Positions 4,597-47,486 are shown, counted from the first letter of the stretch. The stretch: 64,000 nucleotides of DNA from Desulfobacterales bacterium (GCA_046483495.1 JAWODC010000092.1:128153-192152), one strand, 5' to 3'. Notes: generated by a model not told the origin, from the letters alone. Numbers and translations are program-made.

Positions 4597-4606
4597 GACG
4601 GATTCC

Positions 4607-7039: not shown

Positions 7040-8895
7040 GCGGGTATCCCCTGTGTTTCTAAAAATACGAGACAGGCGTAAGCGCCCAAATTCATCCGCA
7101 CGCTTCCGTCCGAGGTCAGTTCATGGTTTTTGCCGGTATCTTTTGCATTTGCCGGGGTGATGGAATCCATCCTTTTTTGCCAATTACCGGCGGGTACGGG
7201 TATGCCGAGGCTTATGGGCCGGTCTGAAAGGTTGAAAATCATAAAGGCGCGGCCGGTCTGCCCCCGGACGGTGAGGCATATCACGGGGTGGGGGGAAATG
7301 AGTTCGCCCATTTTGCCGATTTTTACAGGTCCGGCCGGACCGTAAATGTCGCTTCTCAAGCGGATTAAATCCCGGTAATAGAAAAAGAGATGTTGGTGGT
7401 TTTCGGATGATTGCCGAAGGGTTTGGTTCAGAACGGCGCTGTCAAATGTGGCCCTGTCCTGGGGATCCGGCGGTTCCTCCCCCCATTTGAAGGATTCGAA
7501 TTCCCGTTTCCGGCCTTCCCTCACCGCTTGAACCAGATCGGGATCGGTATGGCTGACAAAATATGGAAAAGGTGCGGTTTCACCGTATTCTTCGCCCATA
7601 AACAGCAGCGGCAGGTAGGGGGACAGCAGAACCATGGCCGCAGCCGTTTTGACGGCGTTTTCCGGAACTAAACGGGTTAGGCGGTCTCCCTTTAAACGGT
7701 TGCCGATTTGATCGTGATTCTGAATAAACACCACGAATTTTTCGGAAGGCATCGATCGGGAGGAATTGCCGTGGCGGCGTTTTCGAAATTCGGAATAGAC
7801 GCCGTCGTATACGAACCCGTCATTCAATGACTTCACCATCTGCTCCGGACGGCCGAAATCCTGGTAATATCCCGCACGTTCACCGGTCAAAAGCGTATGC
7901 AGGGCGTGATGAAAGTCGTCGTTCCACTGAGCGTCCAATCCGTATCCGCCGGCTTCGGGCGGGCGCAGCAGGCGGACGTCGTTCAAGGCGCTTTCGGGAA
8001 TCAGGAAAATGCGGCGGTCGAGATGTTCTGCCAACGTGCCGATCGCATCTCCGAGTTCGTGCAGAAAGGGATAGGCGGAAAAATCGAGAATGGCATGCAC
8101 CGCATCGAGTCGAAGTGCATCCATGTGAAATTCGCTGAACCAGTAAACCGCATTCTCGATAAAATAGCGGCGGACTTCGTCGCTGTAAGCGCCATCGAAG
8201 TTGATGTGCTCCCCCCAGGGCGTTTTGTACCGGTCCGAGAAATAAGATCCGAAATCGCGAAGGTAGTTGCCTTCCGGACCAAGGTGATTGTAAACCACAT
8301 CCAGTACAACGGCCAGGCCTTTCCCGTGGCATGCGTTTACCAGGCGTTTCAAGCCGTTCGGCCCGCCGTAGGTATTTTGAACGGCAAACGGGTAGACCCC
8401 GTCATAGCCCCAGTTCCGGTCTCCGGGAAATTGGGCTACGGGCATCAATTCAACCGCTGTGACCCCCAGGTCCGCGATTTCATCCAGATGAGGAATAACG
8501 GCATCGAAAGTCCCCTCACGGGTAAAGGTGCCCACATGGAGTTCGTAGAAGATGTATCGGGACAACTCCGGTCCGCACCATGCCCCGTCCGTCCAGTCGA
8601 ACCGGGGATCGGTTACCTCGGAAGGGTCGTGTATGCCGTCGGGCTGACTGCCTGAAGCCGGGTCCGGCCTTTCGATGCGCTTGTCCAGGCGGTAGAGGTA
8701 CCGGGTGCCGGGTGAGATCCCGTCGAACTCTCCGGAGAAATAGCCCCGATCTTCCGGTTGAAGAGCGCGGATATCCTCGACGGGGCCGGTAATGTGCACC
8801 TCCGCCGTTTCGGCCGCCGGCGCCCAGACGCGAAATCGGGTTTTGCCGCTTTTAAGGCGAACGGCGCCCAAGGTCCTTGGGGAATACGTTTTCAT
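7036..8895 (-). CDS. treZ: Malto-oligosyltrehalose trehalohydrolase (TreZ)
   Basis: GH13 blocks YELHVGTFT, GVTAVELMPV, DVVYNHLGPEG, ALRLDAVHAI and IQNHDQIGNR are present. I prefer the start at MKTYSPR (ATG 8893-8895), 4 nt after the glgB stop, over the track start at 8943. Confidence 0.9.
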   Translation of the reverse strand: MKTYSPRTLGAVRLKSGKTRFRVWAPAAETAEVHITGPVEDIRALQPEDRGYFSGEFDGISPGTRYLYRLDKRIERPDPASGSQPDGIHDPSEVTDPRFDWTDGAWCGPELSRYIFYELHVGTFTREGTFDAVIPHLDEIADLGVTAVELMPVAQFPGDRNWGYDGVYPFAVQNTYGGPNGLKRLVNACHGKGLAVVLDVVYNHLGPEGNYLRDFGSYFSDRYKTPWGEHINFDGAYSDEVRRYFIENAVYWFSEFHMDALRLDAVHAILDFSAYPFLHELGDAIGTLAEHLDRRIFLIPESALNDVRLLRPPEAGGYGLDAQWNDDFHHALHTLLTGERAGYYQDFGRPEQMVKSLNDGFVYDGVYSEFRKRRHGNSSRSMPSEKFVVFIQNHDQIGNRLKGDRLTRLVPENAVKTAAAMVLLSPYLPLLFMGEEYGETAPFPYFVSHTDPDLVQAVREGRKREFESFKWGEEPPDPQDRATFDSAVLNQTLRQSSENHQHLFFYYRDLIRLRSDIYGPAGPVKIGKMGELISPHPVICLTVRGQTGRAFMIFNLSDRPISLGIPVPAGNWQKRMDSITPANAKDTGKNHELTSDGSVRMNLGAYACLVFLETQGIPA

Positions 8896-8899
8896 GATG

Positions 8900-10849
8900 C
8901 TACTCTCTTTTAAAGAAAACAGCGGCCAGCGGCGGCAGAACAAGGCTCAGGGAATAGGGATGACCGTGGTAGGGAACGGGCGTGGCGGAAACACCCCCCA
9001 GGCTGCCCTGTCCGCTTCCGCCGTATAGGCCGGCATCGCTGTTCAGCAGTTCTTTCCAGAAACCCGATTTCGGCGCCCCCACACGGTAATTATGCCGGGG
9101 TATGGGCGTGAAATTAAAAATGCCGATAATCGCTTCGCCGCCCGCTCCGGCTTTTCGAAGCAGACTGACGGTGCTTTGAATGTTGTCATTGCAGTCGATC
9201 CAGCTGAATCCCTCAGGGCTGAAATCCCTGTCGTGCATGGCCGGTTCGGTTATGTAGAACCGGTTCAAATCTTCCACCCACCGCTTCAGGCATGCATGCA
9301 TGGGGTATTCCAATAGGTGCCAGTGGATACTGCCGTCATGGTGCCATTCATCCCACTGTCCGATTTCATCGCCCATGAACAGCAGTTTTTTTCCGGGCTG
9401 GGCGGCCATGTATCCATAAAGAAGCCTCAGGTTGGCAAATCTCCGCCAGTCGTCCCCGGGCATTTTGCCGATCAGGGAGGATTTTCCGTGGACCACCTCA
9501 TCGTGGGAGAGGGGAAGCATGAAATTTTCACTGAACGCGTAAAGCATGCGGAAATTCAATTTGTTGTGATGGTAACTCCTGTGTATCGGATCCTTGGACA
9601 TGTACTCCAGCGTGTCGTGCATCCATCCCATGTCCCATTTCATCGAAAAACCGAGCCCCCCCACATAGGCGGGACGCGAAACCATGGGCCATGAGGTGGA
9701 CTCCTCGGCGATGGTCTGGACACCGGGATAATGTTGGTGAAGCACTTCGTTCAATTCGCGGAGAAAATCGATGGCGTCCAGGTTCTCCCGTCCGCCGTGA
9801 ATGTTGGGGACCCATTCCCCCTCCTCGCGCGAATAGTCCAGGTACAGCATCGATGCCACCGCATCCATTCTCAGGCCGTCCACGTGATACTTGTCAAGCC
9901 AGAACACGGCGCTGCTGATGAGAAAACTTCGAATTTCATTTCGGCCGTAGTTGAAAATGAAGCTCTTCCAGTCCGGATGGAAGCCCTGGCGGGGATCTTC
10001 GTGTTCAAAAAGATGCGTGCCGTCAAAATATCCGAGCCCGTGTTCATCCGATGGGAAGTGGGAAGGGACCCAGTCCAGTATTACCCCGATGCCGGCCTGG
10101 TGAAGTGTGTCCACCAAAAACATGAAATCCTGGGGTGTGCCGTAGCGGCTGGTCGGTGCGAAATACCCAAGGGTCTGATACCCCCAGGAGCCGTAAAACG
10201 GATGTTCCATTATCGGCAGAAATTCGACATGAGTAAAGTTCATCTGCTGAAGATACGCCGCCAGCTTCGGTGCCGCCTCCCGATAGGTCAGGAAGCGGTT
10301 GTTTTCTTCAGGCACCCGCATCCATGAGCCCAAATGAAGTTCATAAACGGCGATGGGCGATCGGGATGCATCGAAACGGGTTCTCTGCGCCATCCATTCG
10401 CCGTCATGCCATTCATAGGAAAGGTCCCATGTGACTGAAGCCGTTTTAGGGGAAATTTCGTAGAAAAAGCCGTAGGGGTCTGTTTTATCCACCTGATAAT
10501 TCCTTGCATGCGATACGATATGGTACTTGTACAGGGTCCCTTGTTCCATACCGCTGATAAAGCATTCCCAAATGCCGGAATGCCCCCGCTGCTGCAGGGG
10601 ATCGGCATCGTGGCGCCAGTTGTTGAAATCTCCGATTACCGAAACACTTCGAGCATTGGGCGCCCAAACGGCAAAATACATTCCCCGGCGGGCGCCGTCG
10701 GAAATCGGATGGGCACCGAGCTTTTCGTACAGCCGGAAATGGCTGCCCTCATTGAAGAGGTATAGATCGTCCTCCGAGAGCAACGAAAAATATTGCCCCT
10801 TTTCATCTTGTGCGGCTGCTTCCATCGGCGTTTCGTCTGACATATGCAC
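8900..10849 (-). CDS. glgB: 1,4-alpha-glucan branching enzyme
   Basis: 649 aa. YELHLGSW, FTHVEFLPIMEHPFYGSWGYQ, VILDWVPSHF, DGLRMDAVASMLY and SHDEVVHGK are canonical GlgB/GH13_9 blocks. Confidence 0.92.
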   Translation of the reverse strand: MHMSDETPMEAAAQDEKGQYFSLLSEDDLYLFNEGSHFRLYEKLGAHPISDGARRGMYFAVWAPNARSVSVIGDFNNWRHDADPLQQRGHSGIWECFISGMEQGTLYKYHIVSHARNYQVDKTDPYGFFYEISPKTASVTWDLSYEWHDGEWMAQRTRFDASRSPIAVYELHLGSWMRVPEENNRFLTYREAAPKLAAYLQQMNFTHVEFLPIMEHPFYGSWGYQTLGYFAPTSRYGTPQDFMFLVDTLHQAGIGVILDWVPSHFPSDEHGLGYFDGTHLFEHEDPRQGFHPDWKSFIFNYGRNEIRSFLISSAVFWLDKYHVDGLRMDAVASMLYLDYSREEGEWVPNIHGGRENLDAIDFLRELNEVLHQHYPGVQTIAEESTSWPMVSRPAYVGGLGFSMKWDMGWMHDTLEYMSKDPIHRSYHHNKLNFRMLYAFSENFMLPLSHDEVVHGKSSLIGKMPGDDWRRFANLRLLYGYMAAQPGKKLLFMGDEIGQWDEWHHDGSIHWHLLEYPMHACLKRWVEDLNRFYITEPAMHDRDFSPEGFSWIDCNDNIQSTVSLLRKAGAGGEAIIGIFNFTPIPRHNYRVGAPKSGFWKELLNSDAGLYGGSGQGSLGGVSATPVPYHGHPYSLSLVLPPLAAVFFKRE

Positions 10850-10923
10850 GTCCTTTATCTTTCTTCCCTTTTCGGGAAAATCAAGTGGTCAATCACCGCA
10901 AACACGGGCTTGACTCATGGCAT

Positions 10924-13900
10924 TTACTCCGTATGCTCCCGCATCAATTCGAGGAGACCTTTTAACGGGATTCTCAACCACTCCGGTCGATTGTTTAATT
11001 CGTAGGCCAGTTCGTAGAGGGCTTTATCCAGCAGATAAATTTCAAGCAGAATTCTGAATTCGCCGATATTTTCAGGCAGAAATGCTTCCTCCCCGGCTTC
11101 GGACAAATAGGCCTGGAGAAACAGGATGCGAACCCATTGGTACCATCGCATTGCACAGGATTTCAAAAATGCTTCATTTTCGGCGCCATCCGTAATTCCC
11201 CGGCTTTTGATTGAAAAAAGCGCCGCATATGCCGCGTAGTGAAAGGAACGAAGCATACCGGCCACATCCCGAAGGGCGCTTCGCTTGATTCTTCTTTCCG
11301 ATACCGGCCGGGCCGGCTCGCCTTCGAAATCGATAATCTGGAAGTCCTTGCCGGTGTACAAGACCTGGCCCAGGTGGTAGTCGCCGTGGCAGCGGATGCG
11401 CATGGCCGTAAATTTTCGGGTCAGCAGGAGTTGATACCGTTTAAAGATATCCGCTTCGAGACGCACCACGGCATTTGCGTCTTCCTGAAGATCGGCAGGA
11501 AGTTTACCCATGGTTTTCTTTAAAAGCGGCAGCGTTTTTAATGCAAGGGAACGAACGGACTGGTAGAGGCTCCGTTGATAGAGTTTTGTAAACGGCTCCG
11601 GCGAGAAGACGGATCCCTTCGATGCCGATGCCAGCGTGATGTGCAGCTGCGCCGTTCGAATGCCGATCAAGCGGGCCGAGTCCATATACGATCCGATCAA
11701 TTCCAGGGGTTCGGGAGGAAGTGATTCGGATATCAAACTCAATGAGGGCGACTCTGACGATATAAAGGTCAAAAAACGCTCTTTTTCGGCAAGCGCATTT
11801 TCGAACATGGCATTGAGCCGGCTCAGCGTATGGCGCCATGCATCTCCCTGATTTGCGACGTATTCATGAAGGGTCGACAAGGTCATGGGTTCTTCTTTTT
11901 CAGGGTAAAATGCAATGGCCCCCGCCAGGTGCGGCGTGTGGGGAAAATTTTTGCGTGTTAAAAACTGCCCGATTTCGAAGTCCGGATTTATTCCGGGAGT
12001 AAGCCGCCGGATCAGTTTAAGAATCAGCTGATTTCCGAATATGACGGATGTATTGCTTTGTTCCGAAGCGCTGACCATCGTGATCACCGTTTCGGGCAAT
12101 TGCTTTTTCAAATGTGCAAATGCCGAAGTCTTCACCGCCGCGACGGCGCCTTTGCCGACTTTAATGCGTTTGCGCCGTTCGATCATCCGCAGCAACAGAA
12201 CACATACCCGGGTTGCCGCCATACCGTCATGGAGAAGACAAACCGTCTTCTTGCTTTTGTGCTTCAGCCAGGCAATGGCCGCCCATCTGTTCTGCTGGAG
12301 AATTTCGTCGGATTCGGGGGCTTCCGAAAAGGTGACCGGCAGGACGTAAGTCTCGGAGTCGCCTTGCGTATAATCCACCTCTACGAACAAGACGGCAATC
12401 GGCGTTTCCGACCTCCCGACGGGAAAAACATCCCGGATGGTCGTCTGCTTTATGACACGCGCCTTTCCGCCGAACCATCGGGCTTTTTTGATGTATTGTG
12501 AAAGCACTTCTTCCAGCATGGCCTTTTGTGGACCGGAGAAAATGCTGTTGAGTTTTCCACTGATCGTCAACTCCGGTATTGCTGAAGCCGGGGGCTCGGC
12601 GGCAGCCGCTTCGGCCGGTTGTCGGGTTAAATAAAACCAAAAAAAACTATGAGGCCCCAACGACAGAAAATAGGGGGCGGGGCCTATGAATGGAAAAGCG
12701 GTACGGCCGAAAAGTTCCACCGGCACAGCTCCTTGATACGCGGACAGATCGAGTTCCACATATTGCACGAAGCGTGACAGGTTGACTACCACCAGAATGT
12801 TTTCTTCTTCATAGCTTCTGATAAAGGCCAGAATATGATTATTTTCCGGGCGCAAGAACGTAATGGTTCCCCTGCTGAATGCCTTGAATCGCTTCCGCAG
12901 CGTGATAATTCGCTTCATCCACCATAGAACGGAGTGGGGGTTTTGCTGTTGAACTTCTACATTGATGACTTCGAAATGGTATTCCGGTGAAATATTGACC
13001 GGCAGATACAGGGCTTGGGGGTTTGCACGGGAAAAGCCGGCATTCCGGTCACCGGACCACTGCATGGGGGTGCGGACTCCGCCCCTGTCGCCGAGGTGGA
13101 TATTGTCTCCCATGGCGATTTCATCCCCGTAGTAAATAATGGGTGTTCCGGGCATCGAAAACAGCAGCGCATTCATTAATTCGATGCGGCGGCGATGATT
13201 GCCCAGAAGTGGGGCAAGGCGCCTGCGGATTCCCAGGTTCAGCCGCATTTTCCGATCATGCGCATACACCCGGTACATGTAATCGCGCTCTTCGTCGGTA
13301 ACCATTTCAAGGGTCAATTCATCGTGATTGCGAAGAAAAATCGCCCACTGGCAGGAACTGCAGATTGCCGGAGTTTGTTCCAGAATGTCCAGAATGGGAA
13401 AACTGTCTTCCATCTGCAGCGCCATGTAAAGCCGGGGCATAAGGGGAAAATGAAAGGCCATTTGAAATTCATCGCCCTCGCCGAAATAGGCGGCGGCATC
13501 TTCCGGCCACTGGTTGGCTTCCGCCAACAGCATGCGGTTTTTGTATTTTTCATCGACATGCGCCCTGATTTCTTTTACAAATGCATGGGTTTCCGGCAGG
13601 TTTTCGCAGTTGGTCCCTTCACGTTCATATAGATAGGGAACAGCGTCCATTCGAAAACCATCCACGCCCTGGTTCAGCCAAAATTCCAGCGCGTTCAAGA
13701 TGGCTTTGCGGACTTGCGGGTGATCATAGTTGAGATCGGGCTGATGGGAGTAAAAGCGATGCCAGAAGTAGGCCTTTGCAACCGGGTCCCATGTCCAATT
13801 CGATGATTCAAAATCCTGGAAAATGATTCGGGTTTCCGTATAGCGATCCGGTGTCTCGCTCCAGACGTACCATTTCCGGTATTTGCTGTGGGGGGGGCTT

Positions 13901-14280
13901 TGCCGGGCCCTTTGAAACCAAGGGTGCTGATCGGAGGTGTGGTTCACCACCAGTTCTGTGATCACCCGAATGCCCCGTTGGTGGGCGCTTCGAAGAAACA
14001 ACCTGAAATCGGAAAGCGAACCGTAATCCGGGTGGATATCCTTGTAGTCGGAAATGTCGTACCCGTCGTCTTTTTGGGGGGAGGGATAAAACGGCAGCAG
14101 CCAAATGGCCGTTATGCCGAGGTCCTGAAGATAATCGAGCTTTTGAGAAAGCCCTTTGAAATCACCGATTCCGTCGGCATCGCCGTCGAAATAGCTTTTG
14201 ACGTGAAGTTGGTAAATAACGGCATCCTTGTACCAGTATGGATCATTGCTCAATAGCGATTCGCTTTTAGCTGTCTGCAT
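10924..14280 (-). CDS. treS: Trehalose synthase / maltokinase fusion (TreS-Pep2/Mak)
   Basis: 1118 aa. The N-terminal half (WYKDAVIYQLHVKSYFDGDADGIGDFKGL..., DGFRMDAVPYL, FLRNHDELTLE) is TreS. The C-terminal half (RCHGDYHLGQVLYTGKDFQIIDFEGEP...RSALRDVAGMLRSFHYAA) is the maltokinase (aminoglycoside-phosphotransferase-like) domain. Confidence 0.9.
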   Translation of the reverse strand: MQTAKSESLLSNDPYWYKDAVIYQLHVKSYFDGDADGIGDFKGLSQKLDYLQDLGITAIWLLPFYPSPQKDDGYDISDYKDIHPDYGSLSDFRLFLRSAHQRGIRVITELVVNHTSDQHPWFQRARQSPPHSKYRKWYVWSETPDRYTETRIIFQDFESSNWTWDPVAKAYFWHRFYSHQPDLNYDHPQVRKAILNALEFWLNQGVDGFRMDAVPYLYEREGTNCENLPETHAFVKEIRAHVDEKYKNRMLLAEANQWPEDAAAYFGEGDEFQMAFHFPLMPRLYMALQMEDSFPILDILEQTPAICSSCQWAIFLRNHDELTLEMVTDEERDYMYRVYAHDRKMRLNLGIRRRLAPLLGNHRRRIELMNALLFSMPGTPIIYYGDEIAMGDNIHLGDRGGVRTPMQWSGDRNAGFSRANPQALYLPVNISPEYHFEVINVEVQQQNPHSVLWWMKRIITLRKRFKAFSRGTITFLRPENNHILAFIRSYEEENILVVVNLSRFVQYVELDLSAYQGAVPVELFGRTAFPFIGPAPYFLSLGPHSFFWFYLTRQPAEAAAAEPPASAIPELTISGKLNSIFSGPQKAMLEEVLSQYIKKARWFGGKARVIKQTTIRDVFPVGRSETPIAVLFVEVDYTQGDSETYVLPVTFSEAPESDEILQQNRWAAIAWLKHKSKKTVCLLHDGMAATRVCVLLLRMIERRKRIKVGKGAVAAVKTSAFAHLKKQLPETVITMVSASEQSNTSVIFGNQLILKLIRRLTPGINPDFEIGQFLTRKNFPHTPHLAGAIAFYPEKEEPMTLSTLHEYVANQGDAWRHTLSRLNAMFENALAEKERFLTFISSESPSLSLISESLPPEPLELIGSYMDSARLIGIRTAQLHITLASASKGSVFSPEPFTKLYQRSLYQSVRSLALKTLPLLKKTMGKLPADLQEDANAVVRLEADIFKRYQLLLTRKFTAMRIRCHGDYHLGQVLYTGKDFQIIDFEGEPARPVSERRIKRSALRDVAGMLRSFHYAAYAALFSIKSRGITDGAENEAFLKSCAMRWYQWVRILFLQAYLSEAGEEAFLPENIGEFRILLEIYLLDKALYELAYELNNRPEWLRIPLKGLLELMREHTE

Positions 14281-14294
14281 ACTCCGATTTCCGT

Positions 14295-16295
14295 TTAGAG
14301 GTAGTAATCAAAATCTTTCTCCGTTCTGACTTTTCGTCGAATCGCAAAAATATGAGCCGGTATAATCCGGGGATCGAGTTCCACATAATTGCGGTCACCG
14401 TACCAGAGGAAGCGTGCGTCACTCAAAAGATCGTGCATTTGAAAGGATTTTGCCGGATCCAGATGCATTGCGGAAAGCGGGAGATCCACCCAACCGGCAT
14501 GCGTGTGGTGGGGGTCTAAATTAACCACGACAAGGATGGTATTGGACCGGTCGTCGGAACGTTTGCTATAGCAGATCATTTGTTCATTATCCACCGGAAG
14601 AAAGGCCAGACTTCGGTTGTTGTGCAGGGCAGGGTTTTCCTTCCGGATGTGGTTTACCCGGGCGATGAGCTCCTTTAAGCTCATCGGAGAGGAAATATCC
14701 CACGTTTTGGTTTCGTATTTTTCCGAATCGAGGTACTCCTCGCTGCCCGGCTCCTTGGGTTCATTCATGCACAACTCGAAAGCGGGTCCGTAAATGCCGT
14801 AGCTTGCACCCAGTGTGGCGGCCAATACCAGACGGACGATAAAGGCCGCTCTTCCCCCCGTCTGCAGGTATTCGGTCAGAATGTCCGGCGTGTTCGGCCA
14901 GAGATTGGGTCTGAAATAGTCACGAACCTCTGTCCGGGTCAATTCCGTGAAATACTTTTGGATATCATAAGCGGTGTTTCGCCATGTAAAGTAGGTGTAG
15001 GATTGGCTGAATCCAGCCTTCGCCAACCGGTACATGACCTTGGGCCGGGTGAATGCTTCGGACAAAAAGATCGTTTCCGGATACCTGGACCTGACGTTTC
15101 CGATCAGCCATTCCCAAAACGCGAAAGGTTTGGTATGCGGGTTATCCACACGGAAAATCCGTATCCCCTGCTCTATCCAATAGAACGTAACCCGCATCAG
15201 TTCCCGGGCCAGTTCCCGCCATCGGTCCGATTCGAAATCCAATGGATAAATATCCTCATATTTTTTTGGGGGATTTTCCGCGTATTGAATGGAGCCGTCC
15301 GGCCGATGACGAAACCACTCGGGATGTTCACTTACGTAAGGATGATCCGGGGAGCATTGGAATGCCAGGTCCATGGCGATTTCGATCCCGTATTCTTCAG
15401 CCTTTTTGACCAAATTTCTAAAATCCGCCAATGTCCCCAACAAGGGGTGTATTTCCGTGTGGCCGCCCTCACGGACTCCGATGGCCCAGGGGCTCCCCGG
15501 GTCTTCCGGGCCGGCAACAGGAGTGTTGTTTTTCCCTTTCCGATGGGTTCGGCCGATGGGATGGATCGGAGGCAGGTATAAAATGTCGAATCCCATATCC
15601 GCAATATAGGGGAGCCGTTTTTCGCAATCGTCAAAGGTCCCGTGTCGCCGTTCTTCCCCGGCACAGGAACGCGGAAACATTTCATACCAACTGCCGTACA
15701 ACGCCCGTTTGCGCTCGGCCAGGACCAACAGTTCTTTTTCATAAAAGGAGGCTTTTTTTCTGTCGGTGTGTTTTTGCATCAGGTGCAGCAGGCCTTTACC
15801 GAGCGCAAGTGCAATTCGTCCTTTTTGGGGCTTGTCTGAGCGGATATCGCTTGCCCGGCTTCGCAGCCAATCGCCGTCGGATTTGGGTGCCGGATCCGCC
15901 GTTTTTTCGATCAGTGCGGCACCTGTGAGAAGATCGATTTCCACATCCTGGCCGGCGGCTGTTTTTTTGGCCAGATCCCGGCGCCAGGTTTTGAATTCGT
16001 CAATCCATGCGCACAGGGTGTAGACGTAACCCCCGATCTCCTCGATCGAAAAAGCGGCATACCAGCGGTCGTTCAGGAGAAGCCGCAAGGGGGTTTCTTC
16101 CCATTGAACACCGTCTTTCGGGCGATGCATTAAAACGCCGGAAATCAAGTCATGGCCGTCGGTAAAAATATCGGCCGACACCGCCAGTTTTTCACCGAGG
16201 GTTCGCTTAACGGGAAACCGGCCGCCGTCGATTTCGGGTGACACCCTTTCAATGATGACGCGGGGCAAGAAGGTCTCGGTTTGGATGTCAATCAT
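14295..16295 (-). CDS. glgE: Alpha-1,4-glucan:maltose-1-phosphate maltosyltransferase (GlgE)
   Basis: 666 aa. The N-terminus VIIERVSPEIDGGRFPVKRTLGE is typical of GlgE. GH13_3 blocks SWYEMFPRS, DILYLPPIHPIG and IFRVDNPHTKPF are present. Confidence 0.88.
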   Translation of the reverse strand: MIDIQTETFLPRVIIERVSPEIDGGRFPVKRTLGEKLAVSADIFTDGHDLISGVLMHRPKDGVQWEETPLRLLLNDRWYAAFSIEEIGGYVYTLCAWIDEFKTWRRDLAKKTAAGQDVEIDLLTGAALIEKTADPAPKSDGDWLRSRASDIRSDKPQKGRIALALGKGLLHLMQKHTDRKKASFYEKELLVLAERKRALYGSWYEMFPRSCAGEERRHGTFDDCEKRLPYIADMGFDILYLPPIHPIGRTHRKGKNNTPVAGPEDPGSPWAIGVREGGHTEIHPLLGTLADFRNLVKKAEEYGIEIAMDLAFQCSPDHPYVSEHPEWFRHRPDGSIQYAENPPKKYEDIYPLDFESDRWRELARELMRVTFYWIEQGIRIFRVDNPHTKPFAFWEWLIGNVRSRYPETIFLSEAFTRPKVMYRLAKAGFSQSYTYFTWRNTAYDIQKYFTELTRTEVRDYFRPNLWPNTPDILTEYLQTGGRAAFIVRLVLAATLGASYGIYGPAFELCMNEPKEPGSEEYLDSEKYETKTWDISSPMSLKELIARVNHIRKENPALHNNRSLAFLPVDNEQMICYSKRSDDRSNTILVVVNLDPHHTHAGWVDLPLSAMHLDPAKSFQMHDLLSDARFLWYGDRNYVELDPRIIPAHIFAIRRKVRTEKDFDYYL

Positions 16296-16359
16296 AAATC
16301 CGCCCTATTGGATGTGTCGGCGTTGGCATTGTATTGTGTGCGATGGACAACCTCCCGTT

Positions 16360-17904
16360 TCAGACGTAGGGTGAAGCCGGGTAGTTTTGGATGGGCGGCC
16401 GGGGTGCGGCCGGAGCCTTCGTTGCCGGTTTATATTCGACCAGAGGGAAATCCTTTACTTCGTGTATGAATACGGAATTCAGAAAAGCTTCCACCCAATA
16501 GTAAATGTCCTGTCTGCGAATGGCTTTTCTCATCATTTTCATGCGGTATTGGCGCTGGGCCGGCTCCATTTGCGTGGCGGTAAAAAGGGTTTGGGCCACC
16601 GATTCGACATGGTAGGGATTGACCAGCAGCGCGCCCCGTTGAAGCTGGGCGCTGGCGCCTGCGAATTCGCTCAAGATAAGCACCCCGTTTTCTTCCACGT
16701 TTGAGGCGCAGTATTCTTTTGCCACAAGGTTCATACCGTCCTTCAACGGTGTGATGAATGCGACATCCGAAGCGCGGTAAAATGCCAACAGCTCTTGCCG
16801 GTCAATGGAGCGGAACATGTAATGGATCGGCGTCCACCCGGGGCGTCCGTATCGCCCGTTTATTTCACTGATCTTGCGTTCGAGCTGTTCTTTCAGCTCC
16901 AGGTACTTGGGAATCGTAACCCGGCTGGGAACGACGAGCTGAAGCAGTGACATGTTGCCCCGAAGTTGCGGGTACCTGTCGAGGGCCATTTCAAAAGCCG
17001 CCAGTCTTTCCGGAATTCCCTTGGTGTAATCCAGACGATCGATTCCCAGAACGATGTGTTCGACATCGAGTTCTTCTTGAACTTCCCTGACCCTGTCTTC
17101 CACTTCCCGCTTTTCCGCGTTTCTGGCAAATTCATCGAAATCGATGCTGATGGGGAAATTGCCGATGCGGATTTCCCGATCGTTCACCTGGGCGGTGATC
17201 ACCTTGCCCCGCTCCCGGATGACGACATCCCGAAAAAGGGCGCGGATGCACCGAATAAAATTCCTCCGGTCCCGCATGGTCTGAAATCCGACCAAATCGT
17301 AGGACAGCAGGCCTTCCATGACTTCGTACCGCCAGGGCAGTTTGAAAAAGAGATCCGGAGAAGGGAAGGGGATGTGAAGGAAAAATCCGATTTTGGAGGT
17401 CACTCCCATCTCCCGAAGGTTTTTGCCGGCCATCATCAAATGATAGTCATGGATCCAGATATGGTCGCCGTTGATGATGCTTTCATGCGTGCTTTGTGCA
17501 AATTTACGGTTTACCGCCTGATAAGCCTTCCAGTAGGAGGGGTCGAAATTGCAGCGGGTCTGAAGATCATGAAACAGGGGCCATATAATTTCATTGGCGA
17601 ATCCATAATAAAAACTGTCCACTTCCTCGGGCGTGAGCATCACCGGTTCGAAGCTGTACCCGGTGCCGTCCGTCGTTTCATTGAGCAGTTTTTTAATGAG
17701 GTGTTTTTTGCCTTTGGTCGTTCCCGGCCATCCGATCCATAATCCTCCCCGGTTCCGAAGAACCGGCACCATGGCTGTCACCAATCCGCCGGAGCCGTCT
17801 TTTACCTCAAATCTTCCCGAGTCATCCTGCGATATTGTCGAAGGCAGCCTGTTCGATATGATGATGAGACGATTTTTTGCCGTTTTTTCAGTGATTAGAC
17901 TCAT
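16360..17904 (-). CDS. otsA: Alpha,alpha-trehalose-phosphate synthase (GT20)
   Basis: 514 aa. [38 protein letters not shown] and [14 protein letters not shown] are OtsA/GT20 blocks. A Pro-rich tail of about 40 aa follows. Confidence 0.88.
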
Positions 17905-21339: not shown

Positions 21340-21810
21340 AGGTGCTCCTTTTCATTTTCTTGGCAAGCGGTATAGGAATTCACCCGAAAACCGCAGCGCC
21401 GTTCATGCAGTCCGGATTTGAGGGACAGGCATTCGATTCCAGCCGTATCCGTCACATTTCCTTTTAGAACTACGGCAACGGGTTGTCATTTTCAATGGAT
21501 CAAATCGGGTATCCATCGTGAAAAAGCTATGTATAAACCATTACAAGCGGTGGGGCTGCGGCATGGCCGTCGGCTGAAAAGATAAAACATACATGTGGAC
21601 GGCCGCGGGAATGCATGAATAAGCGTATTGTTTCGATTTTGACGCTGTGACAGCATTGCAGTAAATTGCGCTATCGGAAATTATATTTTTTTATGCCGGC
21701 AATCCTGGTGGAAATTGTAAAGACCGGTGAGCGGCAATCATCGGCGGCCGAACTTCGGAAAGACAGGCACCGGGATCGAGGATTTAACCGAAAACAGACG
21801 GGAAAACGAT

Positions 21811-23178
21811 ATGCCGACAAAAAGACTAGTCGTAATCGGAGGCAATGCGGCCGGAATGGGGGCTGCCTCCCAGGCGAGGCGTCAGCAGAACGATTTGATC
21901 ATAAAGGCATTCGAAAAGACGCCCTATCCGTCCTATTCACCATGAGGCATTCCGTACCTGATCGGCCGGGTAGTCGATAATCCTGAAAAATTGATCGTCC
22001 GAACCCCCAGAGTTTTCAGGGAAAAACAAAATATTGAAACCTACGTATCCCATGAGGTCCGGGAAATCGATATCGAGCGTCAGCGAATCCGCGTCCAGCG
22101 CAAGGAGGATGGAAAAACCTGGTGGGAGCCTTACGATCACCTGATGATCGCAACGGGGTCCGTTCCCATACGCATTCCGGTGCAAGGATCGGATTCAGAA
22201 GGCATTTTCGGCGTCAACACCTATGAAAGCGGAATTAAGCTGAATCGGTTCCTGGATGACGCGTCGGCTAAGAACGCCGTGGTGATCGGCGGCGGTTATA
22301 TCGGACTGGAAATGGCCGAGAATCTGATCAAAAGGGGACTGAGCGTTTCATTGGTCGAATTGAACAAAGAGGTGATGTCAACGCTGGATCCGGACATGGG
22401 AAAACTCGTATCCGATGCGCTGATCGAGATCGGTGTGAAACTTTTTCGGGAGGAACGGTTCGAGGGTTTTGAAACGGACAACGGGCGCGTCAGGGCGGTG
22501 GTCACCGATAAACGGACATTGCCCGCCGATGTTGTTGTACTGGGTATGGGGGTTCGGCCGAATACGGAACTCGCCCAAAAGGCCGGTATCCCCATCGGTC
22601 CGTCAAAGGGGATCAGGGTGAATCCGCTCCTGCAGACGGACGTGGAAAACGTATGGGCGGGAGGGGATTGCGCGGAGTCCATTCACCTGGTCAGCGGCAA
22701 ACCTGTTCATATCCCCCTTGGGACGGTGGCGAACAAACATGGCCGGGTGGCGGGGATCAACATCGGCGGCGGGTATGCCACCTTTCCCGGCGTAGTCGGG
22801 ACGGCTATGAGCAAAATATGTGCGGTCGAGGTCGCCCGAACGGGTCTTGGAGAAAAAGAGGTGCAACGTATCGGGCTGCACTATATCACCTCGGTTACAC
22901 GGACCAGGACACGTGCGGGTTACTACCCGAATGCGGATTCTATTTCAGTAAAATTGATTGCCGAAAAAAACACCGGCAGATTACTCGGTGCCCAAATCGT
23001 CGGCAGAGAAGGGGCTGCCAAACGAATCGATATTCTGGCAACCGCCCTGCATCGAAGAATGAACCTCCAGGAAATTATGGATTTGGACCTGAGTTATGCG
23101 CCTCCGTATTCACCTGTTTGGGACCCGGTGGCATTGGCGGCACGGGTGGCCTTGAAAAAACTTCAGCCCGATACATAA
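21811..23178 (+). CDS. CoA-disulfide reductase / NADH oxidase-family flavoprotein with in-frame UGA (predicted selenocysteine) at 21943-21945
   Basis: Track ORFs 21727..21945 and 21991..23178 share one frame and are separated only by TGA, with no other stop. The joined sequence MPTKRLVVIGGNAAGMGAASQARR...FEKTPYPSYSP-U-GIPYLIGRVV matches the family redox-centre motif S(F/Y)xxC(A/G)(L/I)PY(V/L)IG, with U in place of the Cys. Downstream FAD/NAD(P) motifs VVIGGGYIGLEMAE and AGGDCAE are present. ATG 21811 was chosen as the start. Confidence 0.75.
21955..21972 (+). promoter_or_regulatory. Candidate SECIS-like hairpin downstream of UGA 21943-21945
   Basis: UACCUG-AUCGGC-CGGGUA: 6 bp including one G-U pair, with a 6-nt G-containing loop. 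It begins 9 nt after the UGA. An imperfect lower extension is possible. This is the weakest of the three hairpins. Confidence 0.35.
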
Positions 23179-23261: not shown

Positions 23262-23870
23262 ATGAGAATATGTTGGGCTATTGCCGCCGTCCTGATCGTA
23301 ACGGCCCTTGCGGGTACGGCATATATCTGGTCGGGAGCATACAATATATCGGCAAACGTGCCTCATTACCGGGTCACCTTTCGGCTGATGGAAGCACTCA
23401 AGAATCGATCCGTAAAATATCATGCCTCGGATATTCCGAATGTGCTGTTCGCCGGTCCGCTCGACGGTGCGCATAATGCCGCAATCACTTATTATCACGA
23501 CATGTGCCGTCGGTGCCATGGCGGTCCCGGTATATTGCGGGATACCTATGCCTTTGGACTGAATCCTGTTCCGCCGGACTTGACCACGGGAGAAGAACAA
23601 AAGCGATGGACGGATATTCAGCTCTTCTGGATCGTGGTCAACGGAATTAAATTGACCGGTATGCCGTCGTTCGGAGAAACGCATACCGAAGCTGAAATCT
23701 GCGATATCATCAATTTTCTCAACAGGCTGCCGCAGATGAGCGCCGCAGAATACCTGGCTCTTTCGGGAGCGTTGGAAAAAGAAAAACCCGAACCCCGCGA
23801 TCACCATGAATTCAGGCCGTTTCCACTGGAGCCGGAAATCGGCAGAAGTATCGATTACTTTATTCTATAG
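23262..23870 (+). CDS. Membrane-anchored/secreted mono-haem c-type cytochrome
   Basis: 202 aa with an N-terminal hydrophobic segment (MRICWAIAAVLIVTALAGTAYIW). There is a single CxxCH (CRRCH) and a distal Met block (GMPSFG). Confidence 0.7.
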   Translation: MRICWAIAAVLIVTALAGTAYIWSGAYNISANVPHYRVTFRLMEALKNRSVKYHASDIPNVLFAGPLDGAHNAAITYYHDMCRRCHGGPGILRDTYAFGLNPVPPDLTTGEEQKRWTDIQLFWIVVNGIKLTGMPSFGETHTEAEICDIINFLNRLPQMSAAEYLALSGALEKEKPEPRDHHEFRPFPLEPEIGRSIDYFIL

Positions 23871-24022
23871 AGAAGGAGAGCCGGCTGTCGAGGCTGTTGC
23901 AGACTCCCCGCCGATACGTTAAAATGGCAATACGAAAAGACAAGCCATTGTTTTGATTGATAGAGCTATTCGGCAAAATAATGATTCACGGGTGAAGACA
24001 AAAAGCAAGGAGAAGAGAAGCT

Positions 24023-24931
24023 ATGAAGGAACAGGCATTCGATGTCATCATATTGGGAGCCGGACCGGCGGGATTTCAGGCGGCGCTGCATGCGGTGCGC
24101 AGGAAAGCATCGGTTCTTCTGCTTGGCAAGGCCGCAAAAAGCAGCGCCCACGGTTCTCATATCGAAAATTTTTGCTGCATCCACGGCACGTCCGGTACCG
24201 AAATGCTGAAGCTCGCGAGTGAGCAGGCCCGGAAGGCGGGAGCCGTCGTTTCGGATGAGGATGTCATCGATGTGGAAACCGTCGACGGACGATATGCCGT
24301 TTATGGAGAACGCGGCGGAAAATATACGGCCGCGGCAATCGTTCTGGCGATGGGCATTTCACGCAACAGCTTGAAACTTCCCGGAGAAAAGAAGCTGATC
24401 GGCCGCGGTATCAGCTACTGTGTCGATTGCGATGGGCCGCTGTTTAAAAACGAGCCGGTGGCGGTTGTCGGATGCGAAAGTGCAGCAGGGAGCGGCGCGT
24501 TGACTTTGATGTTTTTCACTCCTGAAGTGCACCTGATCTGCGAGGCGCTTCACATGGATGACTATTTGGCGGAGAAAATCAAAAGCAGCGATATCCGGTT
24601 GCACGAAGGCCGAAAAGTGACGCATATCACCGGTGAAACGGAACTCGCCGGGATCGCATTGGATGATGGGACAAAATTGGACATCAAAGGAATGTTCATC
24701 GAACTCGGGGCAAAGGGCGCCGTCGGATTGGCCGGAAAGCTGGGCGTCAGGATGGATGAAGAAAATATGAAGTATGTAGCCGTCACGAGAAAGCAGGAAA
24801 CGAATCTTCCCGGCGTATATGCCGCCGGTGATATATGCGGGCCGCCATGGCAGGTAGCCAAAGCTGTAGGGGAGGGGTGCGTTGCCGGGCTTGAAGCGGC
24901 GGCGTATGCACGAAAGCCTAAATCCGGATAA
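24023..24931 (+). CDS. Thioredoxin-reductase-like FAD disulfide oxidoreductase lacking canonical NADPH motifs
   Basis: 302 aa. The FAD motif DVIILGAGPAGFQAA, the redox CxxC (SYCVDCDG, compare CATCDG) and the C-terminal GVYAAGDI are present. The second dinucleotide motif reads VVGCESAAGSGA instead of GGGxSA, and no HRRxxxR is present. Confidence 0.75.
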   Translation: MKEQAFDVIILGAGPAGFQAALHAVRRKASVLLLGKAAKSSAHGSHIENFCCIHGTSGTEMLKLASEQARKAGAVVSDEDVIDVETVDGRYAVYGERGGKYTAAAIVLAMGISRNSLKLPGEKKLIGRGISYCVDCDGPLFKNEPVAVVGCESAAGSGALTLMFFTPEVHLICEALHMDDYLAEKIKSSDIRLHEGRKVTHITGETELAGIALDDGTKLDIKGMFIELGAKGAVGLAGKLGVRMDEENMKYVAVTRKQETNLPGVYAAGDICGPPWQVAKAVGEGCVAGLEAAAYARKPKSG

Positions 24932-46336: not shown

Positions 46337-46861
46337 ATGAATCTAATGAACAAAAAATCATGGTCCCCCTATTGGGTAGGGGGTGCCATCGGCATTCTGG
46401 AGACGGTGGCGATGCTTACCGCAAAAAGGCCGTTGGGCATTACGACCGCTTTTGAAAACGCCGCAGCCATGGCGGCCGGCAAGCTGGCACCGAAAAAATT
46501 GGGGATCGAGGAATATCGACACCAGAGTGGCCAGACGCCGAAAATCGACTGGGAGACGGGGCTCGTCGGCGGGGTTATGCTTGGAAGTCTGATCAGTGCC
46601 CGCTTGTCCGAAGACTCGAAACCGCCTGAAGTGCCGACTGCCTGGCAGGAGAAAGTCGGCCGGTCAAAGGCGCTCCGATTTGCGGCCGCCACCGGCGGAG
46701 GCGCGCTCATGATGATCGGCGCCCGAATGGCAAAGGGGTGCACGAGCGGTCACGGCATCAGCGGGACGATGCAATTCGCAGCTTCCAGTTGGCTCTTCGA
46801 TCCGATTATCTTTGCATCCGGGGCGGTGGTGTCCAGGGCGCTGTTCGGGAGGAAAACATGA
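46337..46861 (+). CDS. YeeE/YedE-family sulfur-compound transporter component (first half-type protein)
   Basis: 174 aa membrane protein. PLGITTAF and MAKGCTSGHGISG are the YeeE/YedE Cys-containing motifs. Confidence 0.75.
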   Translation: MNLMNKKSWSPYWVGGAIGILETVAMLTAKRPLGITTAFENAAAMAAGKLAPKKLGIEEYRHQSGQTPKIDWETGLVGGVMLGSLISARLSEDSKPPEVPTAWQEKVGRSKALRFAAATGGGALMMIGARMAKGCTSGHGISGTMQFAASSWLFDPIIFASGAVVSRALFGRKT

Positions 46862-47418
46862 CACGAGAATCCATTGGAAGACTTTTGCTCGGGTTCGGGA
46901 CAGGCGCGGCATTCGGTTTTCTGTTGCATAAGGGGCGGGCTTCGGAATATGAGGTCATTTCCGGTCAATTGCTCGCAACCGACGCATCCGTCGTTAAGAT
47001 AATGGCTACCGCGTCCGCTGTCGGCGCCTTTGGAACCCAACTTCTCAACCGGCATGAAAAGGCGGATATCAAAATCAAGCCGCTCAATGCCGGGGGCGTT
47101 GCCGTTGGGGGGACACTTTTCGGGATAGGAATGGCGCTCCTGGGGTATTGTCCGGGGACCGATATGGCGGCCTTGGGTGCCGGCCATACGGATGCGGCCT
47201 TCGGCGCGGTCGGAATGTTCGGCGGTGCACTGGCCTTTGTGGGGCTTTACCCCTATATAAAACCGGTGATCGAAAAAGGTGCCGTCGGAAAACGAACACT
47301 GCCGGAGCTCACCGGCACCTCTCCCTGGCTTTGGGTTTCCGGAATCGCGGCTGCAGCGGCGGTGACTGCCGGGTTTTTGGAGAAAAACGGTTCCCGCCGC
47401 CAATCCGCTGTCGAGTAG
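46858..47418 (+). CDS. YeeE/YedE-family sulfur-compound transporter component (second half-type protein)
   Basis: ATG 46858 overlaps the upstream stop (ATGA). GFGTGAAFGFLLHKG and LLGYCPGTDMAALG are YeeE/YedE-type motifs. Confidence 0.75.
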   Translation: MTRESIGRLLLGFGTGAAFGFLLHKGRASEYEVISGQLLATDASVVKIMATASAVGAFGTQLLNRHEKADIKIKPLNAGGVAVGGTLFGIGMALLGYCPGTDMAALGAGHTDAAFGAVGMFGGALAFVGLYPYIKPVIEKGAVGKRTLPELTGTSPWLWVSGIAAAAAVTAGFLEKNGSRRQSAVE

Positions 47419-47486
47419 GGACACGACGATAAGCCGGACCATTCAGTTCTAAAGATAACCATGCATTTCCCGAAAGGAGGCAAGAC

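What the first reader, a model, noticed from the sequence alone, without database searches (positions are those of the whole stretch)
21811..23178. CoA-disulfide-reductase/NADH-oxidase-like flavoprotein with UGA at the redox-active Cys position (predicted selenoprotein)
The ORF track shows a 72-aa ORF ending in TGA (21943-21945), then a 395-aa ORF in the same frame. No other stop lies between them. Reading through gives YPSYSP-U-GIPYLIGRVV. This aligns residue for residue with the single redox-active Cys motif of this flavoprotein family (for example DMSFANCALPYVIGEVV in staphylococcal CoADR, recalled from memory). A stop codon falling exactly on the one catalytic Cys, with a full-length conserved protein on both sides, is the hallmark of Sec recoding rather than a pseudogene. 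A short hairpin (21955-21972) follows the UGA.
Basis: partly seen in the sequence, partly recalled or inferred. Interest (0 to 1): 0.72.

Follow-up and report, generated by a model that had tools for sequence, protein, structure and literature searches.

The report
Selenocysteine flavoprotein gene, mis-annotated as truncated
This is one gene for a CoA-disulfide-reductase-like flavoenzyme whose catalytic cysteine is replaced by selenocysteine encoded by UGA; the call is almost certainly right, but this selenoprotein family was predicted in 2004, so it is a new, mis-annotated member, not a new kind.

Summary
ATG 21811 to TAA 23178 is one reading frame, interrupted only by TGA 21943-21945. The joined 455-aa protein is a full-length CoADR/Nox-type flavoprotein, and the TGA sits on the Cys of the 'CG(I/L)PY' redox motif in the solved homologues.

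The TGA is not an error or a pseudogene lesion:
- 39 other distinct loci from independent assemblies (55-70% protein identity) carry TGA at this same codon.
- Both sides of the TGA are under purifying selection.
- 108 of 109 full-length database relatives have Cys at this column.
- TGA is an ordinary stop for 13 of 35 other genes in the window.

A hairpin 15-18 nt after the TGA codon is conserved only in the TGA forms and shows compensatory changes.

A second gene in the window, msrA, has TGA on its catalytic Cys (GUFWG). This supports Sec decoding in this genome.

The family ('NADH oxidase'/'CoA-disulfide reductase', motif UGxP) was predicted as a selenoprotein in 2004 and is listed in the 2022 and 2026 reviews. 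It is still uncharacterised biochemically. No sel genes or tRNA-Sec lie in the window, and the rest of the genome could not be reached.

The parts
21811..23178 (+). Complete coding sequence of the selenoprotein: 455 residues with Sec at position 45, ending in stop TAA. It has Pyr_redox_2 and Pyr_redox_dim domains and is CoADR/Nox-like.
   Evidence: There is a single frame with one internal TGA. Pfam PF07992 covers residues 5-294 and PF02852 covers 335-436. PDB 6ruz matches at 2e-109 and 3cgb at 1e-100, both over the full length. NCBIfam TIGR03385 aligns over profile positions 1-439 of 439 at 444.6 bits.
21943..21945 (+). UGA codon read as selenocysteine (residue 45). It lies in the column of the single redox-active Cys; the motif is U-G-I-P.
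   Evidence: It aligns to the Cys of CG[IL]PY in four solved structures. The same codon is TGA in 39 other distinct loci and TGC/TGT in 88. The published family motif is UGxP (PMC13188914).
21961..21978 (+). Candidate bacterial SECIS stem-loop. The stem is 21961-21966 paired with 21973-21978 (AUCGGC/GUCGAU). The apical loop is 21967-21972 (CGGGUA). The loop begins 21 nt after the UGA codon.
   Evidence: The helix at alignment columns 18-25/30-37 is 93.1% paired in 40 Sec loci. It has 37 double-sided changes, and 0 of 500 shuffles reach the observed value. Register pairs average 7.45 of 8 in Sec genes against 4.5 of 8 in Cys genes. In the window itself it is only -6.1 kcal/mol.
21838..21855 (+). 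FAD-binding Rossmann motif GGNAAG (residues 10-15). It lies upstream of the UGA, so it is lost in the truncated database annotation.
   Evidence: The motif is invariant in the Sec-clade alignment A1. The upstream 38 codons have dN/dS of about 0.18 against L001 and L003.
22288..22305 (+). Second dinucleotide-binding motif GGGYIG (residues 160-165), for NAD(P)H.
   Evidence: Pfam PF00070 covers residues 156-232. The motif is invariant in A1.

Best explanation
Positions 21811-23178 form one gene for a homodimer-type, FAD-dependent pyridine-nucleotide oxidoreductase of the single-cysteine CoADR/Nox/Npx group. Its one redox-active Cys is replaced by selenocysteine.

Inferred translation mechanism: UGA 21943-21945 is recoded by SelB·GTP·Sec-tRNA(Sec), which is recruited by a short stem-loop inside the coding sequence (21961-21978, loop CGGGUA). 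The stem-loop overlaps the codons for the conserved peptide (I/V)-G-x-x-V-D.

Inferred chemistry: NAD(P)H reduces FAD. Reduced FAD then reduces a selenenyl-sulfide (Sec-Se-S-CoA) or selenenic-acid centre at residue 45. This releases CoA-SH or CoA persulfide/sulfide, or reduces a peroxide or O2. Which substrate is used is not settled.

Shown here: the intact frame, the homology, the Sec/Cys column, conservation of the UGA, and the Sec-specific covarying hairpin.
Inferred only: actual Sec insertion, the SelB interaction and the substrate.
For: Frame and homology:
- One frame with one internal TGA.
- Full-length homology to solved Nox/CoADR enzymes, with the TGA on their CG[IL]PY Cys.
- Best NCBIfam model is CoA-disulfide reductase TIGR03385, aligned end to end.

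The TGA is a conserved, selected feature:
- The closest database relatives (65-70% identity) are all called as 395-406-aa truncations. The four whose DNA was fetched (of ten such) carry TGA at the same codon.
- 11 GTDB species genomes (10 labelled as Deltaproteobacteria/Desulfobacterota lineages, 1 Anaerolineaceae) and 27 metagenome contigs do the same. That gives 40 distinct sequences in all.
- These sequences form a mostly-Sec clade.
- dN/dS is 0.18-0.3 both upstream and downstream of the TGA.
- TGA terminates 13 of 35 Pfam-supported genes in the window, so UGA is not reassigned genome-wide.

The hairpin:
- Columns 18-25/30-37 are 93.1% paired.
- Compensatory pair types are CG/UA/GC at 18-37, GC/AU at 19-36 and AU/CG/GC at 25-30.
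- At 25-30 the changes include synonymous Arg CGG/AGG paired with synonymous Val GUG/GUU.
- 0 of 500 shuffles reach the observed value, and slid controls pair at 65% or less.
- Cys homologues average 4.5 of 8 pairs against 7.45 of 8 in Sec genes. On the first set of loci (16 Sec, 61 Cys; means 7.0 and 4.75) the Mann-Whitney p was 1.4e-8.
- Loop size, G in the first two loop positions and 21-nt spacing fit the published bSECIS model (PMC13188914).

Independent support:
- A second Sec-type gene lies on the same contig. msrA has TGA on the GCFWG Cys, and its best PDB match is the Clostridium oremlandii MsrA family.
- The family is a published predicted selenoprotein with motif UGxP.
Against: - No selA, selB, selD or tRNA-Sec lies in the 64-kb window. 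The rest of the genome could not be retrieved.
- The window's own hairpin is weak. It is -6.1 kcal/mol alone and -6.9 when enforced, above the -7.5 limit of the published model.
- It is not favoured in the predicted ensemble, and folding of the region is no better than shuffles.
- There is no Rfam match.
- Scores are below the equivalog cut-offs of all CoADR and Nox models, so the substrate is open.
- Part of the helix (GUC/GAC, GGC/GUC) is favoured by the encoded V-G..V-D peptide itself.
Confidence: 0.9

Rival explanations
1. Pseudogene or assembly/sequencing error. On this view a TGC/TGT Cys codon was hit by a nonsense change, or misread, and the gene is dead or really encodes Cys.
For: The TGA differs from TGC/TGT by one base. 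The source is a metagenome-assembled genome. NCBI annotates only the 395-aa downstream part (P0001).
Against: The same codon is TGA in 39 other distinct sequences from independent assemblies at 55-70% protein identity. Both flanks are under purifying selection. A hairpin specific to the TGA forms co-varies.
Confidence: 0.02
2. Termination at the UGA followed by re-initiation. The functional product would be the annotated 395-aa protein starting at TTG 21991, perhaps together with a separate 44-aa peptide.
For: This is the current database gene call. TTG 21991 is an available start codon.
Against: The 395-aa product would lack the FAD-binding GGNAAG motif, the redox-centre column and the conserved GIPYLIGRVVD segment. 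The 15 codons between the TGA and the TTG are conserved as protein, at 67-73% identity and dN/dS of about 0.17-0.34. In homologues the gene callers pick different starts (395, 398, 402 and 406 aa), so no start codon is conserved.
Confidence: 0.03
3. UGA read-through by a standard amino acid (Trp or Cys, by near-cognate or suppressor tRNA) rather than by selenocysteine, or a local change of the genetic code.
For: One JGI gene call translated the homologous TGA as W (P0081). The Sec machinery was not seen.
Against: TGA is the stop of 13 of 35 genes in the window. The position is the catalytic Cys column of a family already listed as a selenoprotein. A SECIS-like hairpin is conserved only in the TGA forms. 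A second TGA lies on the catalytic Cys of msrA. The lineages are Desulfobacterota and Chloroflexota, the phyla that supply six of the ten largest bacterial selenoproteomes listed in BSepDB (PMC13326102).
Confidence: 0.04

Closest known systems
[quoted passage not shown] Its exemplar is Geobacter metallireducens WP_011365774.1 (Kryukov & Gladyshev 2004), as listed in PMC1794560, PMC9312934 and PMC13188914.
   Same: The fold family is the same (COG0446/TIGR03385). The Sec motif is the same (UGxP; here U-G-I-P). The host group is the same (Deltaproteobacteria/Desulfobacterota). MAGs labelled Geobacteraceae and Geobacterales (L016, L014) carry the TGA form in the same clade as the window.
   Different: It is about 59% identical to the Geobacteraceae and Geobacterales MAG forms. 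It belongs to a GGNAAGM subclade with a TrxR-like neighbour gene, seen only in its two closest relatives.
Solved Cys-containing homologues: Thermus thermophilus NADH oxidase 6ruz, Bacillus anthracis CoADR 3cgb, Archaeoglobus NoxA-3 6pfz, and Pyrococcus horikoshii CoADR 4fx9/5l1n.
   Same: They align over the full length (E = 1e-91 to 2e-109). They share the N-terminal GG(D/G/V)A(A/G)G(M) motif, the CG(I/L)PY redox motif and the C-terminal (S/A)YAPP(Y/F) motif.
   Different: They use Cys where the window gene has UGA. The window protein scores below the NCBIfam equivalog cut-offs for CoADR and for H2O-forming Nox.
Bacterial SECIS consensus (bSECISearch model, Zhang & Gladyshev 2005), as summarised in PMC13188914.
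   Same: It is a stem-loop inside the ORF just after the UGA. Here it has a 6-nt loop with G at the second position followed by G, a 6-bp stem, and 21 nt between the UGA and the loop.
   Different: The window copy is less stable than the model's -7.5 kcal/mol limit. Most homologues are between -8 and -14 kcal/mol.
Selenoprotein MsrA of Clostridium (Alkaliphilus) oremlandii (PDB 4u66, 4lwj-4lwm).
   Same: This is the best match to the second TGA-containing gene in the window. The GUFWG motif has the UGA on the catalytic Cys.
   Different: It is a different protein family. It is relevant only as independent evidence that this genome decodes UGA as Sec. The window copy has an extra N-terminal signal-peptide-like segment.

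Membership tests
[quoted passage not shown] | In-frame UGA at the column of the single redox-active Cys, with Cys in non-Sec homologues | tested here: met
   The TGA aligns to the Cys of CG[IL]PY in four PDB alignments. 108 of 109 full-length relatives have Cys. 88 distinct loci have TGC/TGT and 40 have TGA.
[quoted passage not shown] | Sec motif UGxP | tested here: met
   The window reads U-G-I-P. The motif is as listed in PMC13188914.
[quoted passage not shown] | Belongs to the TIGR03385/COG0446 flavoprotein fold family | tested here: met
   TIGR03385 is the best NCBIfam hit, at 444.6 bits and aligned over profile positions 1-439 of 439. Pfam finds Pyr_redox_2 and Pyr_redox_dim.
[quoted passage not shown] | UGA conserved in orthologues from other genomes | tested here: met
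   There are 40 distinct TGA-bearing sequences, including 11 GTDB species genomes. They form a mostly-Sec clade.
[quoted passage not shown] | Direct similarity to the family exemplar WP_011365774.1 (G. metallireducens) | not tested
MAGs labelled Geobacteraceae and Geobacterales with TGA (L016, L014) are in the same clade.
Any bacterial selenoprotein | Sec-decoding machinery (selA, selB, selC/tRNA-Sec, selD) in the same genome | not testable with these tools
   There is no tRNA in the window, and none of the roughly 40 proteins scanned is a Sel protein. The source contig is not retrievable. The indirect support is a second Sec-type gene, msrA, in the window.
Any bacterial selenoprotein | Selenium actually incorporated at the UGA | not testable with these tools
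   This needs 75Se labelling or mass spectrometry.
Bacterial SECIS (bSECISearch consensus, as in PMC13188914) | Apical loop of 3-9 nt on an upper stem of 4-16 bp | tested here: met
   In the window the loop is 6 nt (CGGGUA) and the stem is 6 bp. In homologues the loop is 4-6 nt and the stem 6-8 bp.
Bacterial SECIS (bSECISearch consensus, as in PMC13188914) | G in one of the first two loop positions, usually followed by G or U | tested here: met
   The window loop is C-G-G-G-U-A. Homologue loops are GGGU, GGUU, AGGU, CGUGUC and GGAU.
Bacterial SECIS (bSECISearch consensus, as in PMC13188914) | 16-37 nt between the UGA and the apical loop | tested here: met
   It is 21 nt in the window (21946-21966) and 21-22 nt in homologues.
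Bacterial SECIS (bSECISearch consensus, as in PMC13188914) | Minimum free energy of -7.5 kcal/mol or lower | tested here: not met
   The window value is -6.1 kcal/mol for the hairpin and -6.9 when the hairpin is enforced in a 48-60-nt context. Eleven of the 15 other sequences are between -8.3 and -13.7.
Bacterial SECIS (bSECISearch consensus, as in PMC13188914) | Structure supported by covariation and specific to the Sec-encoding genes | tested here: met
   The helix is 93.1% paired with 37 double-sided changes, and 0 of 500 shuffles reach that. Sec genes average 7.45 of 8 pairs and Cys genes 4.5 of 8.
CoA-disulfide reductase sensu stricto (EC 1.8.1.14) | Score above the NCBIfam equivalog cut-off (TIGR03385, NF007123, NF010037) | tested here: not met
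   Scores against cut-offs are 444.6 against 578.8, 395.5 against 458, and 254.8 against 394.
CoA-disulfide reductase sensu stricto (EC 1.8.1.14) | Active-site Tyr equivalent to S. aureus Tyr419 (1yqz; C43 and Y419 as cited in PMC1924876) | tested here: inconclusive
   Tyr429 in 'LSYAPP' is invariant in the Sec clade. It corresponds to 1yqz residue 419 only by the offset of the alignment ends. No residue-level alignment was printed.
CoA-disulfide reductase sensu stricto (EC 1.8.1.14) | NAD(P)H-dependent reduction of CoA disulfide | not testable with these tools
   This needs an enzyme assay.
H2O-forming NADH oxidase / NADH peroxidase | Score above the NCBIfam equivalog cut-off (NF046103) | tested here: not met
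   The score is 227.7 against a cut-off of 600. PDB Npx and Nox matches are much weaker (1e-35 to 1e-50) than the CoADR-type matches.

The most novel reading that the evidence does not exclude
The Sec form may be an old, predominantly-Sec lineage of CoADR-like enzymes spread through Desulfobacterota and some Chloroflexota, not a sporadic variant. In this lineage the SECIS is built into the codons of the conserved (I/V)-G-x-x-V-D peptide and co-evolves with them. The enzyme would use selenenyl-sulfide chemistry for a job that Cys enzymes do poorly in anaerobes. Examples are CoA-persulfide/polysulfide or peroxide reduction, possibly with the neighbouring TrxR-like flavoprotein and c-type cytochrome. 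No member has been characterised, so the substrate could turn out to be new.
Probability: 0.3. Interest if true: 0.45.

Novelty: new member of a known kind. Interest (0 to 1): 0.27.

Why it matters
- It corrects an annotation. The public record holds only a 395-aa fragment that lacks the FAD-binding motif and the catalytic residue.
- The corrected gene and a Sec-MsrA in the same window flag this Desulfobacterales MAG as a Sec user.
- It supplies 40 aligned examples of the family's in-ORF SECIS, with synonymous-site covariation. These could seed a covariance model, since Rfam currently has nothing that detects the element.
- It does not open a new biological question. The family has been a 'high-confidence predicted' selenoprotein since 2004. 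The open point is its biochemistry: substrate, Se-S against Se-OH chemistry, and why Sec is used.

Tried and rejected
- Rfam scans of the whole window (gathering thresholds) and of 21880-22080 (E up to 10) gave no SECIS-like hit.
- Single-sequence folding of 21943-22010 and 21930-21990 was no better than shuffles (z = +1.4 and +0.8). Single-sequence thermodynamics alone cannot identify the element.
It can still form in the window and in its two closest relatives.
- I tried to reach the rest of the source contig (193 kb) to look for selA, selB, selC and selD. Five look-ups failed: four window genes, and P0001 itself.
- A metagenome scan with the single protein found no relatives. The alignment-based scan worked.
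- I searched the window for further split ORFs around a TGA and inspected the candidates. Only msrA is convincing.
- Conserved gene neighbourhood was tested as a clue to function. The GAPDH and cytochrome c neighbours are shared only with L001, and the TrxR-like neighbour only with L001 and L002. The neighbourhood therefore says little.
- The original 2004 paper (PMC1299047) is not held.
- I considered a further database search to fetch the G. metallireducens exemplar. I dropped it as not worth the cost.

Full report
**Observation.** The window holds a 72-aa ORF (21727-21945) that ends in TGA and a 395-aa ORF (21991-23178) in the same frame. Translating 21811-23178 gives 455 codons with one internal stop: MPTKRLVVIGGNAAGM...YPSYSP*GIPYLIGRVVDNPEK.... 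With Cys put at the stop, the protein matches Pfam Pyr_redox_2 (residues 5-294, E = 1e-59), Pyr_redox and Pyr_redox_dim.

The joined protein also matches solved structures over its full length:
- Thermus thermophilus NADH oxidase 6ruz, E = 2e-109.
- Bacillus anthracis CoADR 3cgb, E = 1e-100.
- Archaeoglobus NoxA-3 6pfz, E = 2e-99.
- Pyrococcus horikoshii CoADR 5l1n/4fx9, E = 1e-90.

In all four printed alignments the TGA column is the Cys of 'CG(I/L)PY'. S. aureus CoADR 1yqz also matches (E = 1.8e-54). By the offset of the alignment ends, its Cys43 falls on the same column; Cys43 is named as the redox cysteine, with Tyr419, in PMC1924876.

**Is the TGA real and selected?** The identical 395-aa fragment is in the public databases as 'MAG: FAD-dependent oxidoreductase [Desulfobacterales bacterium]', on a 193-kb contig (P0001). 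The closest relatives of the joined protein (65-70% identity) are all called as truncated 395-406-aa proteins. Relatives at 64% identity or less are full length, and 108 of 109 of them have Cys at the column.

The evidence from DNA is as follows:
- DNA fetched for four truncated relatives shows an in-frame TGA at exactly this codon, preceded by a conserved M-x(3-4)-[LF][VI]VIGGNA(A/G)GM N-terminus.
- The one relative with 'W' at the column (P0081) also has TGA in its DNA. Its gene caller read the codon as Trp.
- A scan of one genome per GTDB species found 11 more TGA loci: 10 in genomes labelled as Deltaproteobacteria/Desulfobacterota lineages and 1 in Anaerolineaceae. It also found 61 TGC/TGT loci.
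- A metagenome scan added 27 further TGA loci.
- In total, 40 distinct sequences carry the TGA.
- In a neighbour-joining tree, 13 of the 16 TGA forms fall in one clade with only two Cys forms nested inside (L015, L018). The other three (L013, L041, L044) form a separate small clade.
- dN/dS against three relatives is about 0.18 for the 38 codons upstream of the TGA. It is about 0.17-0.34 for the 15 codons between the TGA and the annotated TTG start, and about 0.16-0.22 further downstream.
- TGA is the ordinary stop of 13 of 35 Pfam-supported genes in the window.

Sequencing error, pseudogene, split gene and a reassigned stop codon are therefore all very unlikely.

**The recoding signal.** Folding the window sequence alone gives nothing significant, and Rfam gives no hit. 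The comparative evidence is clear.

In the 48 nt from the TGA onwards, alignment columns 18-25 pair with columns 30-37. Across 40 distinct sequences, 93.1% of cells are paired and 37 cells have changes on both sides. The pair types seen are:
- columns 18-37: CG, UA, GC and UG;
- columns 19-36: GC, AU and GU;
- columns 25-30: AU, CG and GC.

No shuffle out of 500 reaches the observed pairing or covariation, and slid registers pair at 65% or less. Several of these changes are synonymous on both sides. Arg CGG against AGG at column 25 goes with Val GUG against GUU at column 30. The I/V first base at column 19 goes with Asp GAU/GAC at column 36.

The helix is specific to the Sec genes. Sec genes average 7.45 of 8 register pairs, against 4.5 of 8 in 88 Cys genes. 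On the first set of loci (16 Sec, 61 Cys; means 7.0 and 4.75) the Mann-Whitney p was 1.4e-8.

In window coordinates the stem is 21961-21966 paired with 21973-21978, and the loop is CGGGUA (21967-21972). Checked against the bSECIS model quoted in PMC13188914:
- Loop size (3-9 nt): met, at 6 nt.
- Stem length (4-16 bp): met, at 6 bp.
- G in the first two loop positions: met.
- Spacing of 16-37 nt: met, at 21 nt.
- Stability of -7.5 kcal/mol or lower: not met by the window copy (-6.1 alone, -6.9 when enforced). Most homologues are between -8 and -14.

It pairs in only 60% of cells across the family, no better than slid controls. [quoted passage not shown] It can form in the window's two closest relatives, so a role there is not excluded.

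**Does this genome decode Sec?** The window has no tRNA gene. None of the roughly 40 proteins scanned is SelA, SelB or SelD. The rest of the contig could not be fetched.

There is indirect support from a second gene. On the minus strand, 57363-56560 encodes a MsrA that passes the NCBIfam TIGR00401 cut-off (134.8 against 108.1 bits). It has an in-frame TGA at 57138-57136 on the catalytic Cys of GCFWG...AYFGLG*FWGIESRFG. Its best solved match is the MsrA set 4u66/4lwj-4lwm/7c13 (E = 2e-50). I take this set to be the Clostridium oremlandii selenoprotein MsrA. GUFWG is the published Sec motif of that family (PMC13188914). A hairpin AUCCC-GGUUC-GGGAU follows 14 nt after the TGA codon, and its loop starts 19 nt after it. 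Two TGA codons on the catalytic Cys of two known selenoprotein families, both on one contig, are hard to explain otherwise. Desulfobacterota and Chloroflexota supply six of the ten largest bacterial selenoproteomes listed in BSepDB (PMC13326102).

**Function.** The best NCBIfam model is CoA-disulfide reductase TIGR03385, aligned end to end. However, the score of 444.6 bits is below the equivalog cut-off of 578.8. The other CoADR models and the H2O-forming NADH oxidase model also fall below their cut-offs. The N-terminal GG(N/D)AAGMSAA motif and the C-terminal (S/A)YAPP(Y/F) motif resemble the B. anthracis and P. horikoshii CoADRs.

I therefore place the protein in the single-Cys CoADR/Nox group without fixing the substrate. 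The inferred mechanism is NAD(P)H to FAD to a Sec45 selenenyl-sulfide or selenenic acid. This follows the established Cys-S-S-CoA and Cys-SOH chemistry of the group, which I state from prior knowledge; it was not tested here.

The gene is followed by a small c-type cytochrome (23262-23870) and a TrxR-like flavoprotein (24023-24931). That arrangement is shared only with the two closest relatives, so it says little about function.

**Comparison with what is known.** 'NADH oxidase' appears as a selenoprotein family of Geobacter metallireducens in PMC1794560 and as a single-copy selenoprotein family in the Olavius algarvensis symbiont metagenome in PMC1976440. [quoted passage not shown] They give COG0446/TIGR03385, motif UGxP and exemplar WP_011365774.1, and credit Kryukov & Gladyshev 2004. 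The 2026 review places the family among the families 'predicted with high confidence', that is, not verified experimentally.

The window gene has the fold, the motif (U-G-I-P) and the host group of that family. MAGs labelled Geobacteraceae and Geobacterales carry the TGA form in the same clade. I did not align the protein with the exemplar itself.

**Verdict.** It is a new, mis-annotated member of a known predicted selenoprotein family, so interest is low to moderate. This analysis adds three things:
- corrected coordinates for the SECIS;
- covariation evidence that the hairpin is under selection specifically in the TGA forms;
- the Sec-MsrA found in passing.

Noticed in passing
window 56560-57363, minus strand; TGA at 57138-57136; hairpin 57121-57107: This is a second candidate selenoprotein gene. 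It encodes a MsrA with a signal-peptide-like N-terminus and an in-frame TGA on the catalytic Cys of GCFWG (giving GUFWG). The ORF lists show only the 177-aa part downstream of the TGA. The best PDB matches are the 4u66/4lwj MsrA set (E = 2e-50). A stem-loop with loop GGUUC follows; the loop starts 19 nt after the UGA.
   Followed up: partly
L085 812-814 (protein P0081): A JGI gene call gives Trp at the redox-Cys column of a homologue, but the DNA codon is TGA. The contig was evidently translated with a code that reads UGA as Trp. This hides a selenoprotein under a full-length 'W' protein.
   Followed up: yes
loci L015 and L018 against the TGA clade (tree): Two Cys-encoding genes are nested inside the otherwise TGA-encoding clade. 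This suggests occasional Sec-to-Cys replacement. In both, the downstream helix is degraded, to 5 and 4 of 8 register pairs.
   Followed up: partly
window 21946-21990 against L001 and L002: The synonymous divergence of the 15 codons just after the TGA (dS 0.49-0.80) is lower than in the flanking segments (dS 1.2-1.6, or saturated). This would be expected if an RNA structure constrains silent sites. The sample is very small.
   Followed up: no
window 569-17904: This is a long run of alpha-glucan and trehalose genes: an alpha-amylase-family protein, MalQ (GH77), a GH57/DUF3536 protein, two CBM48/alpha-amylase proteins of isoamylase or branching-enzyme type, a TreS-maltokinase-like fusion (1118 aa), GlgE, and a GT20 trehalose-phosphate synthase. 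Together they look like a GlgE-type glucan pathway cluster.
   Followed up: no
window 46337-48869, plus strand: Two adjacent or overlapping half-size YeeE/YedE 'sulphur transport' ORFs (46337-46861 and about 46738-47418) are followed by a metallo-beta-lactamase-rhodanese fusion (47487-48869). YedE-type proteins have been linked to selenium metabolism in the literature (from memory). This was not examined.
   Followed up: no
window 52975-55701, minus strand: A 908-aa glycyl-radical enzyme (PFL-like plus Gly_radical domains) of unknown specificity. No activase was identified among the proteins scanned.
   Followed up: no
window 23262-24931, plus strand: A small membrane-anchored or secreted c-type cytochrome and a TrxR-like flavoprotein (CVDC motif; below the TrxR equivalog cut-off) follow the selenoprotein gene. 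The order GAPDH / selenoprotein / cytochrome c / TrxR-like is repeated in L001 (70% identical protein). In L002 only the TrxR-like gene is repeated.
   Followed up: partly
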